A stretch of 20,000 nucleotides of DNA from an uncultured virus (IMG/VR IMGVR_UViG_3300037657_000059) (IMGVR_UViG_3300037657_000059), one strand, 5' to 3'; shown: positions 17,706 to 19,829, counted from the stretch's first letter. The notes: a model not told the origin generated them from the sequence alone. Numbers and translations: made by a program.

Positions 17706-18129
17706 CTTCCTTTTTCTTTCGCAGGATCTCCACCCCATCTTTCCACTTGCTGATCTCAACGATTGATTTCTCGGTAAAGATATGATGGTGATTGATCCTT
17801 TCCAATACCAGATCGGTCTTACTGGATACCAGCTGGATCGATTGGTTTAAAAGGGAAATGGATTTCTGTTGATCTTCCTGCAATCCCTTGATAAATCGGT
17901 TCGTGTGGGTTATTAACTCTCGCTGGAAATTATCCCGCTTCTCACCTTGCGCTTCATTCCACACACGCTGCTTCTCAGATTCTGCAGCCTGGAATATACG
18001 TTCTTTCTCCCTTGTTTCTTCCCGGACCTTTGCCAGCGCATCCTCCCGCCTGAGCAGGAAGATCACAACAACAAAAATTAAAACAGCCATTGGCCATTGA
18101 TTTGCAATGCTTGCCAGAATGGTTTCCAT
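17692..18129 (-). CDS. Single-TM coiled-coil membrane protein, putative holin-like/lysis accessory
   Basis: N-terminal hydrophobic helix then charged coiled coil; TGATG overlap with the upstream holin-like gene. Confidence 0.55.
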   Translation of the reverse strand: METILASIANQWPMAVLIFVVVIFLLRREDALAKVREETREKERIFQAAESEKQRVWNEAQGEKRDNFQRELITHTNRFIKGLQEDQQKSISLLNQSIQLVSSKTDLVLERINHHHIFTEKSIVEISKWKDGVEILRKKKEDPQD

Positions 18130-18509
18130 CAATTCTCTCCCCCGATTCCTGTGAATGTCTTATTCACCGCTCTTGTAACCAACTGGGTGATCAAACCCTT
18201 GATCAGATCATATAATCCGGAGGCAACCAGACCAATCGCCAGACCATAAACACCAACGCCAAACCAGTACACAAATAGCACATACCAATCCAGGGATAGA
18301 GGCGGCCGCTCTGACATGACCATAAAGCCACTGCCAAAGAACAGCCCCAAAACCAATGAGAGCACCAGCAACCCGTTCCCCGTGATCAGCTGGCTACCGT
18401 CCTTTTTAGTGAGGCGTTTCGCCCACTCCACCAGACCAAAAACAACAAACAATAATGGCACACCTTTGACCGCTGCCTGTAAAAATGACGTGAAGTCCAT
18501 TCCTTCCAT
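18129..18509 (-). CDS. Putative holin (three TM segments)
   Basis: Three hydrophobic segments, LVEWAK and GLVASGLYD patterns; AAGGAG RBS before ATG 18509. Confidence 0.7.
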   Translation of the reverse strand: MEGMDFTSFLQAAVKGVPLLFVVFGLVEWAKRLTKKDGSQLITGNGLLVLSLVLGLFFGSGFMVMSERPPLSLDWYVLFVYWFGVGVYGLAIGLVASGLYDLIKGLITQLVTRAVNKTFTGIGGEN

Positions 18510-18532
18510 TCCCAGCTCCTTCCCCAAAACAC

Positions 18533-18569
18533 AAAAAAAGACCGTCAGAAAACTAAGCTCCTGACGGTC
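18533..18569 (-). terminator. Intrinsic terminator in the late leader
   Basis: GACCGTCAGGAG-CTTAGT-TTTCTGACGGTC followed by T7. Confidence 0.9.
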
Positions 18570-18639
18570 CATTGCCGCTCTATGGAATTACAACGATCTA
18601 TTCAATTGTCAAAACGAAATCACGCGGTCAATTGCCGCT
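18564..18639 (-). promoter_or_regulatory. Leader with two repeated mini-hairpins AGCGGCAAT(T/G)GACCG, 60 bp apart
   Basis: Repeats at 18625-18639 and 18565-18579 (14/15 identical); the second overlaps the terminator 5' arm. Confidence 0.75.
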
Positions 18640-18644
18640 ACCTA

Positions 18645-18673
18645 ATTATACAATTTTTCTAACCGTGATGCAA
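18645..18673 (-). promoter_or_regulatory. Sigma70-type late promoter
   Basis: TTGCAT (18673-18668), 17-bp spacer, TATAAT (18650-18645). Confidence 0.8.
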
Positions 18674-18685
18674 GCGGTTGTGGGC

Positions 18686-19351
18686 TTATTCATTAATTAT
18701 TAAATTAAGACTTAACTGCATTTGTGCTTCTTTAATTCGCTTATCCGCAATTGAATAATATGTTGGGTCAATTTCAATACCGATAAAGTTACGGTCATGT
18801 TTTACACTCCAATATCCGCTGGTTCCTGTACCCATAAAGCAATCCAATATTGTTTCACCATTAACAGAAAATGAATCAATTACACGTCCAGTTATATCAA
18901 GGCTTGTTTGTCCTGGATGATTATACTTTTTTTCTTTGTAAAAATATCCCATACCGGGAACCTGAACATTCCACCAATGATCCTTAGTGCGCTTAACCGG
19001 TTTATTCGGAACAAGTAGTGGAATATATTGATGAATAAAGTTATTTCTAATTGCACCTTCTGGGGACCATGCACAAATAATTTGATGATGGTCTGGAAGC
19101 TGGTTGTAAAACCAAAGTAAATTCTTTTTTGGTGGATACACAGCAAAAGTTTTACATACTCTTTTTAATTCGGTTAACCACTTAATGCACCAATTAAAAT
19201 ATTCCTCTTCTGGAAGATCATCTTTATATGTTCCATAATCTTTGCCAATATTATATGGTGGATCAACAAATCCAAAATCCACAATTTTATCAGGTATCCC
19301 CTTCAAGACATCCAAGCAATCACCAAGATACAGTTCAACAGACAAGTCCAT
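18686..19351 (-). CDS. Orphan N6A/N4C DNA methyltransferase, beta class
   Basis: GDCLDVL, N-terminal DPPY, C-terminal ILDCFMGTGT and FIGIEID; visibly AT-rich. Confidence 0.93.
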   Translation of the reverse strand: MDLSVELYLGDCLDVLKGIPDKIVDFGFVDPPYNIGKDYGTYKDDLPEEEYFNWCIKWLTELKRVCKTFAVYPPKKNLLWFYNQLPDHHQIICAWSPEGAIRNNFIHQYIPLLVPNKPVKRTKDHWWNVQVPGMGYFYKEKKYNHPGQTSLDITGRVIDSFSVNGETILDCFMGTGTSGYWSVKHDRNFIGIEIDPTYYSIADKRIKEAQMQLSLNLIINE

Positions 19352-19363
19352 CCCTTTCGCCTT

Positions 19364-19570
19364 TCAACATTCCCCTTTCCCCTCATTAAACACAACCGGC
19401 TTCCCCTCCACTACATGTGAGATGCGATACACCTGCCAGCGCTTCACGTCAATCCGCAAGGACCCAAACCCGCCAGCATCCTTTTTCAGGATCTCAAGCC
19501 GGTTCTTCAACTCCAAAGCCTGCTCTGTAGTCATGCCCAACCAATCCGCCACAATCTGAGCTTCATCCAT
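19364..19570 (-). CDS. Small protein, DUF2292/YezD-like; candidate late regulator
   Basis: Helix followed by GFGSLRIDVKRWQVYRI, resembling the DUF2292 pattern; AAGGA RBS before ATG 19570 (alternative start 19588). Confidence 0.45.
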   Translation of the reverse strand: MDEAQIVADWLGMTTEQALELKNRLEILKKDAGGFGSLRIDVKRWQVYRISHVVEGKPVVFNEGKGEC

Positions 19571-19829
19571 GATTATCATCCTTGCCATTCAGACTAACAA
19601 ACAATCCCAGCTTCGCCAAAACTTCCAATCCATCTTCATATTCGATTTTCGCTTTAGGATTGGAATAGCGCATCCTTTTAACAATCAGAGTACAGACTTT
19701 ATCAATCAATAAATAATCTCCATCTTCCGCTTTTTCCAGGGTAGACACATAAGCCGCAGCCTGCTCTTTTAACGAAGAAATTTCAAATAACTCAAGATCC
19801 TTGAGAATCTTCTGCTTTTTCTCGTTCAT
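19563..19829 (-). CDS. Hypothetical phage protein (88 aa)
   Basis: GGAG RBS before ATG 19829; packed with neighbouring ORFs. Confidence 0.7.
   Translation of the reverse strand: MNEKKQKILKDLELFEISSLKEQAAAYVSTLEKAEDGDYLLIDKVCTLIVKRMRYSNPKAKIEYEDGLEVLAKLGLFVSLNGKDDNHG

What the first reader, a model, noticed from the sequence alone, without database searches (positions are those of the whole stretch)
18533..18673. Late leader with dual mini-hairpins, the second mutually exclusive with the terminator: candidate antitermination switch
Seen: a near-consensus promoter predicts +1 near 18639. The RNA would begin with hairpin GCGG-CAAUUGA-CCGC (18638-18624). Exactly 60 nt later comes GCGG-CAAUGGA-CCGU (18578-18564), whose 3' half is the 5' arm of a strong terminator upstream of all lysis and virion genes. 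The loop word CAATTGA occurs a third time between them (18608-18602). Known: two hairpins with the second overlapping a terminator is the ANTAR logic, but these loops are 7 nt and lack the ANTAR closing pair; lambda Q acts through a DNA site instead. Inference: a protein binds both loops and blocks terminator folding to switch on late genes.
Basis: partly seen in the sequence, partly recalled or inferred. Interest (0 to 1): 0.78.

Follow-up and report, generated by a model that had tools for sequence, protein, structure and literature searches.

The report
Phage late-gene leader with twin hairpins
Just upstream of this phage's lysis and virion genes lie a strong promoter, two copies of a conserved 17-base hairpin-forming word and a strong terminator, which most likely form a switch that turns on late genes by letting transcription read through the terminator.

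Summary
TTGCAT-17-TATAAT (18673-18645) is followed by GCGG-CAATTGA-CCGC (18638-18624). Exactly 60 nt later comes GCGG-CAATGGA-CCGT (18578-18564), whose 3' half is the base of a 13-bp terminator (18570-18539, T7).

New evidence:
- Three relatives keep the module. One of them, L172, has a 65%-identical upstream protein, a different first late gene and an unrelated spacer. It still keeps both 17-mers, the first at the RNA 5' end and the second overlapping a differently built terminator.
- Metagenome variants change the spacer but not the hairpins.
- The third CAATTGA and the central block are not conserved.
- All 10 stem pairs are invariant, so there is no covariation. No Rfam family matches and no RNA data exist.
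- A conserved 68-aa protein of no known fold, encoded just upstream, is the candidate factor.

Best reading: this is an antitermination-controlled late leader like lambda PR'-tR' or AlpA-PalpB-tB. The twin motif is the factor's recognition site. I favour RNA hairpins that block the terminator base (about 0.4). A DNA-level loading site (about 0.25) is not excluded. It is a new variant of a known kind, of moderate interest.

The parts
19364..19570 (-). Gene for a 68-aa protein (74 aa if read from the ATG at 19588). It is the candidate trans-acting factor. Its start overlaps the stop of the upstream 87-aa gene.
   Evidence: It is conserved upstream of the leader in L001, L124 and L172. It abuts the module in metagenome variants (loose end at 18679). 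The family alignment is A6. The AF2 model has pLDDT 84 and shows two helices plus a beta-hairpin. No Pfam or PHROG family matches. No structural match was found.
18686..19351 (-). N6/N4 DNA methyltransferase gene. It is an insertion between the small-protein gene and the late promoter and is not part of the switch.
   Evidence: Pfam N6_N4_Mtase at 2.4e-23 and phrog_67. It is absent in L001, L124, L172 and the metagenome variants, whose homology to the window ends at 18673 or 18679.
18661..18679 (-). Inverted repeat AACCG-N9-CGGTT spanning the -35. It marks the left border of the conserved module.
   Evidence: Read. AACC...GGTT is kept in L001 and L124. L172 lacks it and has CAGAA-N6-TTCTG in the promoter spacer instead. 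Its function is unknown.
18645..18673 (-). Sigma-70-type promoter TTGCAT-17-TATAAT.
   Evidence: It is identical in L001 and L172, and TTGCCT in L124. It is the only TTG-N19-21-TATAAT in the window and in the 33-kb relative G406. No start-site data exist.
18624..18640 (-). Copy 1 of the 17-mer, (T/G)AGCGGCAAWNGACCGC. It forms hairpin 1, at +1 to +15 of the predicted RNA.
   Evidence: (-6.0 kcal/mol). It is invariant in window, L001 and L124. L172 has loop CAAAAGA. No variant was seen in 4 metagenome runs.
18601..18623 (-). Variable spacer, which includes the third CAATTGA (18608-18602).
   Evidence: Of 11 variant places in the leader, 9 lie between 18603 and 18622. The word reads CAATTAA in L001. 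The spacer in L172 is unrelated.
18581..18600 (-). Block TAGATCGTTGTAATTCCATA. It is invariant among close variants only.
   Evidence: It is identical in window, L001, L124 and the metagenome variants. It is not present in L172. A similar word, ATAGATCGTAATT, occurs in L125, which lacks both promoter and terminator.
18564..18580 (-). Copy 2 of the 17-mer, GAGCGGCAAWNGACCGT. It forms hairpin 2, and its 3' half is the first bases of the terminator's 5' arm.
   Evidence: (-3.8 kcal/mol). The loop is CAATGGA, CAATAGA or CAAAAGA in window, L001/L172 and L124. The only variant place is 18570, in the loop.
18533..18570 (-). Intrinsic terminator: a 13-pair stem with a 6-nt loop, then a U7 tract.
   Evidence: -19.4 kcal/mol. 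In L172 the lower 7 pairs (GACCGUC/GACGGUC) are the same. The upper stem is rebuilt with one two-sided change (A-U to G-C) and three one-sided changes (read).
18129..18509 (-). First late gene, encoding a 126-aa membrane protein that looks like a holin. Its ribosome-binding site GGGGAAGGAG lies at 18524-18515.
   Evidence: It is followed by a 146-aa protein, a 91-aa protein, HNH, terS, terL, portal, protease, capsid, tail genes and endolysin.

Best explanation
This is the control region of the phage's late operon (lysis, packaging and virion genes).

Proposed mechanism:
1. A host-type promoter fires without help, but transcripts stop after about 100 nt at a strong intrinsic terminator.
2. Late genes come on when a phage factor lets RNA polymerase pass that terminator.
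3. The factor's recognition site is the 17-nt word (G/U)AGCGGCAAWNGACCGY. It is present twice: once at the very 5' end of the RNA, and once where its 3' half (GACCGU) forms the bottom of the terminator stem.
4. I think the word is most likely read as an RNA hairpin, with a 4-5-bp stem, an apical AAWN and a bulged A.
5. A protein clamped on copy 2 stops the terminator from zipping down to its U-tract. That leaves only a weak upper stem 6 nt away from the U-tract, so termination fails.
6. Copy 1 gives a second contact, for a dimer or for recruitment while the RNA is still short.
7. The best candidate for the factor is the conserved 68-aa protein encoded just upstream.

Shown: the anatomy, the mutual exclusion, and the conservation of both words and of the overlap.
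Inferred: the start site, RNA rather than DNA recognition, and the identity of the factor.
For: Anatomy.

Energies:
- Hairpin 2 alone cannot beat the terminator (-3.8 against -19.4 kcal/mol).
- Forcing it leaves a 6-pair upper stem separated from the U-tract. Default termination and a need for a factor both follow.

Conservation:
- L172 shares a 65%-identical small protein but has another first late gene.
- It keeps the TTGCAT-17-TATAAT promoter.
- Copy 1 starts 9 nt after the -10, against 7 nt in the window.
- Copy 2 overlaps the terminator.
- The 55-nt spacer is unrelated and the upper terminator stem is rebuilt.
- Spacings between copies are 59, 60, 60 and 70 nt.

Natural variants from four groundwater runs:
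- 11 variant places lie in the leader: 9 in the spacer, 1 in the hairpin-2 loop apex, and none in either stem.

Distribution and orientation:
- The word occurs only in the leader: 2 of 2 exact copies in the window, in G406 (33 kb, 89% complete) and in G407.
- All 8 copies have the same orientation, a conserved 5' AG without a symmetric 3' CT, and a non-palindromic loop. This fits a directional, single-strand reading.
- Hairpin 2 closes with G-U in 4 of 4 sequences and hairpin 1 with G-C in 4 of 4. That still pairs in RNA but breaks the DNA palindrome.

No conserved TAnnnT pause-like word follows the start. This is my reading.

The same layout (promoter, short leader, terminator, holin-like gene) recurs in 5 of 29 unique loci outside the close family by script, and by eye in L127 and L160.

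Candidate factor:
- Its gene is the last conserved gene before the promoter in all 4 sequences, and it abuts the module in variants.
- Possible remote homologues sit directly before such modules in L160 (hhalign 80%) and L152 (60%). Those leaders each hold a 5-bp, 7-nt-loop hairpin.
- Control: L140 scores 0.3%.
Against: - There is no covariation: 10 of 10 stem pairs never vary, and RNAalifold finds 0 compensatory pairs. Conservation is of sequence, which a DNA site would also show.
- GCGG-N7-CCGC has half-sites 11 bp apart, which is a usual geometry for a helix-turn-helix dimer. The candidate protein's N-terminus looks like a helix-turn-helix.
- The 60 and 70 nt spacings differ by about one DNA turn.
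- No Rfam family matches, even at E up to 10.
- There is no transcription start, no terminated RNA and no RNA data at all.
- The comparison rests on only 4 sequences plus contig variants, which may come from one sampling campaign.
- The protein has no known RNA-binding fold.
- The link between protein and leader is adjacency only.
- The known small antiterminators for this gene layout, Q and AlpA, act through DNA sites (PMC7969949, passages read).
Confidence: 0.4

Rival explanations
1. Processive, Q/AlpA-like antitermination through DNA. The 15-17-mer is a duplex-DNA (or non-template-strand) loading site next to the start. A small DNA-binding protein binds it, joins RNA polymerase early and makes it terminator-resistant. 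The overlap of copy 2 with the terminator is inherited or incidental.
For: - The gene layout is the same as lambda Q-PR'-tR' and AlpA-PalpB-tB. AlpA is a small winged-helix protein, and its terminator starts 54 nt after the start site, upstream of lysis genes (PMC7969949, passages read).
- The candidate protein has a helix-turn-helix-like N-terminus.
- The word is conserved as sequence, with invariant stems.
- It is a partial inverted repeat with half-sites 11 bp apart.
- The spacings of 60 and 70 nt differ by one helical turn.
Against: - Known Q and AlpA sites lie between or upstream of the promoter hexamers, not at +1 to +15 and +61 to +75.
- A second copy 60-70 bp downstream, always overlapping the terminator's 5' arm, has no role in that scheme.
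- No conserved -10-like pause word follows the start (read).
- The word is asymmetric, and copy 2 breaks the palindrome (CCGT).
- No other strong terminator in the late operon calls for processivity.
- No Q, AlpA or other antiterminator family was found in the window's proteins or in 26 proteins of G406.
Confidence: 0.25
2. Operator sites for a repressor. A dimeric protein binds the two inverted repeats, at +1 and at +61 to +75, and blocks or loops the late promoter. The terminator is a separate safeguard.
For: A site at +1 to +15 is a classic roadblock position. There are two sites 60-70 bp apart, and the neighbouring protein is helix-turn-helix-like.
Against: - A repressor does not explain why a strong terminator always follows, or why it shares bases with site 2.
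- Some factor would still be needed to pass the terminator.
- The word is absent from the immunity and early region of the 89%-complete relative G406.
Confidence: 0.08
3. No dedicated phage protein is involved. Hairpin 1 is a 5'-end stabiliser, and the roughly 100-nt terminated RNA is a product in its own right (like lambda 6S or StxS). Alternatively the RNA acts in cis or with host factors (put- or N/Nus-like) to modify polymerase.
For: - A hairpin at the extreme 5' end is a known mRNA stabiliser. This is established knowledge, recalled.
- Terminated PR' transcripts can be regulatory RNAs (PMC7547250, abstract seen).
- No factor has been identified here.
Against: - Stabilisation does not explain an identical second copy fused to the terminator, nor the sequence-level conservation of loop and stem.
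- put RNAs are larger two-stem elements, and nothing like them or boxA was matched.
- Late genes still need a way past the terminator.
Confidence: 0.12

Closest known systems
Lambda Q with PR', qut and tR' (6S RNA)
   Same: A constitutive promoter sits immediately before the lysis and late genes. A short terminated leader RNA is made by default. The regulator gene lies just upstream. Late genes are switched on by terminator read-through.
   Different: Q binds duplex DNA between the promoter hexamers and needs a sigma-dependent pause. It is processive, and its terminator is independent of the site. Here a twin 17-mer lies inside the transcript and is fused to the terminator, no conserved pause word was seen, and no Q-family protein was found.
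AlpA with PalpB and tB of Pseudomonas aeruginosa (PMC7969949)
   Same: A small protein of about 70 aa controls a promoter followed about 54 nt later by an intrinsic terminator, directly before holin-like lysis genes. Regulation is by antitermination.
   Different: The AlpA site (GGGACG-N5-GGTA) lies between -35 and -10, and AlpA passes foreign terminators. Here the conserved words are downstream of the start and overlap the terminator. The protein gives no Phage_AlpA match, even at E up to 10.
ANTAR regulators (EutV, NasR, AmiR) and their dual-hairpin RNA targets
   Same: There are two small hairpins of like sequence. The second is mutually exclusive with a terminator, and a protein is needed because the hairpins are weak.
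   Different: ANTAR loops are hexaloops with A1 and G4, and the linker is short (recalled). Here the loops are 7 nt (or 4 nt with a bulged A), the linker is 45-55 nt, and the first hairpin is at the RNA 5' end. No ANTAR-domain protein was seen in the proteins scanned, and there is no Rfam match.
Lambda and P22 N with boxB (nut sites)
   Same: Both use 15-nt hairpins recognised by a small phage protein, in two copies per genome.
   Different: nut sites sit one per early operon, need boxA and Nus factors, and act processively away from terminators. No arginine-rich N-like protein or boxA word was found here.
BglG/LicT/SacY with RAT antiterminator RNA
   Same: A small beta-rich RNA-binding dimer stabilises a weak RNA structure that overlaps the terminator's 5' arm.
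   Different: RAT is a roughly 29-nt imperfect stem-loop present in a single copy. The Rfam bglG-cis-reg model scores 19.5 bits on L172 against a threshold of 80, which is chance level.

Membership tests
ANTAR dual-hairpin target | Two tandem hairpins with hexanucleotide loops (A at position 1, G at position 4) and a short linker (definition recalled) | tested here: not met
   The loops are CAAWNGA (7 nt) or AAWN with a bulged A. The linker is 45-55 nt.
ANTAR dual-hairpin target | The second hairpin is mutually exclusive with an intrinsic terminator | tested here: met
   GACCGU is shared by hairpin 2 and the terminator's 5' arm in 4 of 4 sequences.
ANTAR dual-hairpin target | An ANTAR-domain protein is encoded with it | tested here: not met
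   No ANTAR match was found in 12 window proteins or in 26 proteins of relative G406 scanned against Pfam. The window's own early region beyond 20000 was not seen.
Lambda Q-type late antitermination | A Q-family protein is encoded upstream of the late promoter | tested here: not met
   No Q family appeared in the Pfam or PHROG scans. The upstream 68-aa protein has no family.
Lambda Q-type late antitermination | Promoter, then a promoter-proximal terminator, then lysis and late genes | tested here: met
Lambda Q-type late antitermination | A DNA binding element at the promoter plus a sigma-dependent pause word in the initial transcribed region | tested here: inconclusive
   No TAnnnT word is shared by the window and L172 in the first 35 nt (read). 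DNA binding is not testable with these tools.
AlpA family antiterminator | Phage_AlpA (winged-helix) protein | tested here: not met
   There is no Pfam match at E up to 10. The fold searches gave no significant match: Foldseek best E 0.79 and VIA best Z 3.0. A distant winged helix is not excluded.
Lambda N / boxB | A roughly 15-nt hairpin with a GNRA-like pentaloop next to boxA, and an arginine-rich N protein (recalled) | tested here: not met
   The hairpin length fits, but the loop is different. No boxA-like word and no arginine-rich small protein were seen.
DUF2292 / YezD-like small proteins (for the candidate factor) | A match to PF10055 above its curated cut-off (22 bits) | tested here: not met
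   3 of 25 aligned members match, with best E 0.01, below the cut-off. The window's protein does not match. The nearest named Atlas cluster scores 0.76. This is a lead only.
Any Rfam family | A covariance-model match at the gathering score | tested here: not met
   There are 0 matches in the window. At E up to 10 only chance-level rows appear.

The most novel reading that the evidence does not exclude
A previously undescribed family of phage proteins of about 68 aa switches on late genes by clamping a specific 15-17-nt RNA hairpin. The proteins have two helices and a beta-hairpin, with no known fold, and are at best remotely DUF2292-like. The hairpin is present at the RNA 5' end and again fused to the terminator's 5' arm. 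This would be a passive, ANTAR/BglG-style attenuation switch used in place of Q at the early-late junction of temperate phages, possibly of Chloroflexota. Each lineage would carry its own hairpin-protein pair (window type, L160 type, L152 type).
Probability: 0.3. Interest if true: 0.75.

Novelty: new variant of a known kind. Interest (0 to 1): 0.55.

Why it matters
Late-gene control by antitermination is a textbook theme, but the known cases are proteobacterial: Q, N and AlpA. Here the same gene layout appears in uncultured groundwater phages. Their holin relatives sit in Anaerolineaceae and Chloroflexia genomes. The cis element is different: a duplicated hairpin word fused to the terminator. 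The candidate factor has no known family or fold.

If the RNA-clamp reading holds, it would be a new, compact and portable protein-RNA switch, with a 17-nt site and a 68-aa protein. It would also give a first handle on gene regulation in phages of a poorly studied phylum. Even if the factor acts through DNA, the module marks the early-late boundary and the lysis cassette in such genomes.

Tried and rejected
- **Rfam.** Nothing at gathering score, and only chance rows at E up to 10.
- **Named phage, plasmid and E. coli collections.** No DNA match.
- **Own assembly.** It is not held. The nearest record, G001, ends at window 16279 and lacks the leader.
- **Exact and degenerate word scans of IMG/VR.**
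  - 0 hits.
Only the record of L001 had a second copy.
  - 15 stretches, of which 2 are real.
  - 52 stretches, of which 2 are real. The rest are tandem repeats or GC-rich coding DNA.
- **A sample of 401 genomes of the class of G002.** The holin profile was found only in G002 itself.
- **Shared motif across distant leaders.** k-mer counts gave only promoter, ribosome-binding-site and terminator words. Small subgroups do exist: CAGAGTT..CCGCCTG in 3 leaders and TAGCAAT in 3.
- **Conserved upstream gene across all holin loci.** None was found by BLAST clustering.
- **RNA evidence.** No RNA holder was listed.
- **Dimer test of the 68-aa protein.** No verdict; score 0.29 against a mark of 0.42.
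- **Fold searches of its model.**
  - No match in PDB (Foldseek best E 0.79, HU/IHF-like rows; VIA best Z 3.0).
- **The 87-aa neighbour.** No PDB or Atlas lead.
- **L003.** It is not a relative of the leader.
- **The L140 upstream protein.** It is not homologous; hhalign gives 0.3%.
- **Literature.**
  - DUF2292/YezD: one incidental mention.
  - XtrA/PBSX: 4 papers listed by title and abstract start, none with a function for XtrA in what was shown.
  - Chloroflexi/Anaerolineae with phage and antitermination terms: 14 papers hold at least 4 of the 5 terms, and the 10 listed all have 0 occurrences of 'antitermination'.
  - RNA-binding late antiterminators in phages: no such system among 19 papers listed.
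  - These searches cover the held library only.
- **Ideas rejected.**
  - CsrA GGA loops: only the window's copy 2 has GGA.
  - A leader peptide or extended holin start from the ATG in the hairpin-2 loop: it is absent in L001, L124 and L172.
  - A cos or pac site: contig ends fall between HNH and terS.
  - HutP/TRAP UAG repeats: their spacing is irregular.

Full report
**What is there**

The window is the late half of a tailed-phage genome, on the minus strand. The gene order is: DNA methyltransferase (18686-19351), the leader in question, a 126-aa holin-like membrane protein (18509-18129), two small proteins, HNH endonuclease, small and large terminase, portal, protease, major capsid, connector and tail genes, tape measure, and endolysin.

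The minus strand of the leader holds these elements:
- TTGCAT (18673-18668), a 17-nt spacer, then TATAAT (18650-18645).
- GCGGCAATTGACCGC (18638-18624).
- CAATTGA (18608-18602).
- GCGGCAATGGACCGT (18578-18564).
- A 13-pair stem (18570-18539) followed by seven T.
- A ribosome-binding site and the holin-like gene.

The two 15-mers are 93% identical and exactly 60 nt apart.

**Is it more than chance?**

- The word GCGGCAATNGACCG has two exact copies in 20 kb, both in the leader.
- The promoter is the only TTG-N19-21-TATAAT on either strand; shuffles give a mean of 0.58.
- No other terminator-like site in the window comes near this one. The rest are at shuffle level.
- One correction: the -35 matches the consensus at only 3 of 6 positions, so the tool's promoter scan did not list it.
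- The start at about 18639 is inferred from the -10 only.

**Energetics**

- Hairpin 1 folds at -6.0 kcal/mol, hairpin 2 at -3.8 and the terminator at -19.4.
- Forcing hairpin 2 raises the leader's energy from -31.5 to -22.1 kcal/mol.
- That constraint leaves only a 6-pair upper stem, separated from the U-tract by the unpaired ACGGUC.
- Termination is therefore the default, and hairpin 2 could only win if something holds it.
- The mutual-exclusion logic is physically sound.

**Relatives**

Named phage, plasmid and E. coli collections hold nothing similar. The window's own assembly is not held, and the nearest record stops inside terL.

Searches with the holin-like protein gave two close relatives, L001 (IMG/VR) and L124 (metagenome). 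A profile of the upstream small protein gave L172. L172 is a distant relative:
- Its small protein is 65% identical.
- Its first late gene is a different 164-aa membrane protein.
- The rest of its layout is syntenic.

L172 reads TTGCAT-17-TATAAT, then GAGCGGCAAAAGACCGC starting 9 nt after the -10. An unrelated 55-nt spacer follows, then GAGCGGCAATAGACCGT. The GACCGTC of that second copy begins a terminator with a different upper stem (GACCGTCGGAAAAAA...TTTTTTCGACGGTC, then T7).

Between the window and L172 the lower seven terminator pairs are identical. The next pair changes on both sides (A-U to G-C), and three further pairs change on one side while staying paired. This is my reading. The terminator therefore shows structural conservation, while the 17-mers are conserved as sequence.

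Start-to-start spacing of the two copies is 60 (window, L124), 59 (L001) and 70 (L172).

**Natural variants**

Contigs from four groundwater metagenome runs were laid on 18300-18900. They show:
- 11 variant places inside the leader.
- 9 lie in 18603-18622 (the spacer, including the third CAATTGA).
- 1 is at 18570 (the loop apex of hairpin 2).
- 1 is at 18644 (between the -10 and the start).
- None falls in either stem or in the conserved loop letters.

In these variants, homology to the window ends at 18673 or 18679. The methylase gene is therefore an insertion. In one variant the end of the small-protein gene abuts the module.

A third set of short contigs shares only 18531-18577 and has five differences and four small gaps. 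Upstream it reads a different -10-like context, and it has A in place of G at 18578. If real, this is a single-hairpin version with an A-U closing pair. I could not read those contigs in full, and the runs may belong to one campaign.

**What is not conserved**

- The third CAATTGA reads CAATTAA in L001 and is absent in L172.
- The block AATAGATCGTTGTAATTCCATAGAG is invariant only among close variants.
- Both are therefore not core parts of the element.

**Covariation**

On the four-sequence alignment all 10 hairpin pairs never vary. RNAalifold on three sequences finds no compensatory pair. This neither supports nor refutes pairing.

The points that lean towards a directional, single-stranded reading are these:
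- All 8 copies lie in the same orientation.
- There is a conserved AG on the 5' side with no symmetric CT on the 3' side.
- The conserved loop letters (C, A, A ... G, A) are not palindromic.
- Copy 2 closes with G-U in 4 of 4 sequences, and copy 1 with G-C in 4 of 4.
- The copy-2/terminator overlap is kept even though the rest of the terminator was rebuilt.

The points that lean towards DNA are these:
- Conservation is at the sequence level.
- The GCGG-N7-CCGC geometry has half-sites 11 bp apart.
- The spacings of 60 and 70 nt differ by one helical turn.

**Where else the word occurs**

Nowhere else. There are two copies per genome, both in the leader, in the window, in the 33-kb, 89%-complete record of L172, and in the record of L001. 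Three word scans of IMG/VR returned only those two records as real hits.

**Wider architecture**

There were 44 rows: the window plus 43 loci encoding relatives of the holin-like protein. Eight have under 150 nt upstream and 4 are duplicates, leaving 32 unique loci.
- My script finds a terminator within 90 nt of the start in 10 of the 32.
- It finds a promoter plus terminator in 8 of the 32. That is 5 of 29 outside the close family: L130, L132, L139, L140 and L152.
- By eye L127 and L160 also have the layout, though their terminators failed my T-run or mismatch rule. So do the short L128 and L131.
- The leader sequences differ between lineages.
- Several lineages carry their own small hairpin next to the terminator: L160 has ACCGC-N7-GCGGT at the 5' end, L152 has ACCCT-N7-AGGGT 5 nt before the terminator, and L132 has a twice-repeated ATCAACCGT.
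- In the other loci the holin gene simply follows other genes.
- Some relatives of the holin protein lie in MAGs titled Anaerolineaceae and Chloroflexia, at 39-46% identity. This is a weak host hint.

**The candidate factor**

In all four sequences the last conserved gene before the promoter encodes a 66-74-aa protein (window 19364-19570). One variable insert follows it: the methylase in the window, and unrelated 71-73-aa ORFs in L001 and L172.

Sequence searches:
- It has 24 close homologues.
- A full-library profile search found 18 proteins at E up to 0.001.
- No member reaches a Pfam or PHROG threshold. DUF2292 appears below threshold in 3 of 25 members and as the nearest named Atlas cluster at 0.76.
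- A profile search of PDB sequences matched only a helix-turn-helix-like repeat, aligned to the N-terminal helices.

Structure:
- With 20 sequences AlphaFold2 gives pLDDT 84. The model has helices at 3-11 and 15-30 and strands at 36-43 and 46-54.
- Foldseek (best E 0.79, HU/IHF-like rows) and a full VIA scan (best Z 3.0) find nothing significant.

Possible remote homologues:
- Small proteins directly upstream of the L160 and L152 modules align to the family profile with hhalign probabilities of 80% and 60%.
- L127 scores 13% and the L140 control 0.3%.
- This is association by position and is not evidence of binding.

The near-complete relative G406 has an integrase, a Cro/CI-type repressor and early genes. 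Pfam finds no Q, AlpA, ANTAR or sigma-factor family among the 26 proteins scanned.

**Comparison with known systems**

- The gene layout is that of lambda Q-PR'-tR' and of AlpA-PalpB-tB. In the latter a small protein lets polymerase pass a terminator that begins 54 nt after the start, upstream of lysis genes. Its DNA site lies between the promoter hexamers (PMC7969949, passages read).
- The cis logic (two like hairpins, with the second excluding the terminator) is that of ANTAR targets and of BglG/RAT. The defining ANTAR loop and linker features are not met, and no family model matches.
- I therefore file it as working like a protein-dependent antitermination leader, and as a member of none of these families.

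**Verdict**

- That this is an antitermination-controlled late leader I hold at about 0.75.
- That the twin word is read as an RNA hairpin that blocks the terminator base I hold at about 0.4.
- A DNA-level, Q/AlpA-like loading site: about 0.25.
- Operator-type repression: about 0.08.
- Factor-independent or by-product readings: about 0.12.

No supplementary files were consulted. The papers cited were seen only as search listings, abstract starts and passages.

Noticed in passing
window 18686-19351: The N6/N4 DNA methyltransferase gene sits exactly in the slot between the small-protein gene and the late promoter. L001 and L172 carry unrelated 73-aa and 71-aa ORFs in that slot, and some metagenome variants carry nothing there. 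The slot looks like a hot spot for inserted genes.
   Followed up: partly
window 18570-18572: In this variant only, the hairpin-2 loop CAATGGA creates an ATG in frame with the holin-like ORF, giving a 147-aa ORF from 18572 to 18129. L001, L124 and L172 have CAATAGA or CAAAAGA, so this is probably chance.
   Followed up: yes
window 18661-18679; L172 2449-2465: Inverted repeats overlap the promoter: AACCG-N9-CGGTT around the -35 in the window family, and CAGAA-N6-TTCTG in the promoter spacer of L172. The sequences differ but the position is similar. They may be sites for another regulator.
   Followed up: partly
metagenome contigs laid on window 18531-18577 (records 6, 13, 19): A separate contig family shares only the 3' part of hairpin 2 plus the terminator, directly after a different -10-like context. 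It has A for G at 18578. This may be a single-hairpin version of the leader in another phage.
   Followed up: no
L130, L134, L139 (upstream of the holin-like genes): Three distant leaders share CAGAGTT(T/G)(A/G)CCGCCTG running into the terminator's 5' arm. L134 and L139 have a related small zinc-ribbon protein of about 80 aa just upstream. This may be a second regulator-leader pairing.
   Followed up: partly
L132 about 2405-2450: The leader has two direct repeats of AT(A/T)ATCAACCGT, 21 nt apart. The second lies just before the terminator.
   Followed up: no
L125 2430-2500: This relative of the holin-like gene (46% identity) keeps ATAGATCGTAATT and a TAGCAAT word but has no promoter and no terminator. 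The control module can evidently be lost or gained as a unit.
   Followed up: no
G406 (record of L172), reverse-complement coordinates 18220-22600: This is a temperate layout: two tyrosine integrases, a MazF/PemK-like gene, a Cro/CI-type HTH repressor, and a tRNA-T-arm-like word (GCGGATTTGAACCGC) near the integrase. The word suggests a tRNA attachment site.
   Followed up: no
window 18742-18757: Inside the methylase gene, TATTCAATTGCGGATA is an inverted near-copy of the hairpin-1 word (13 nt, 85% complementary) and of CAATTGAATA (10 nt, 100%). It is window-specific and probably due to the CAATTG palindrome.
   Followed up: no
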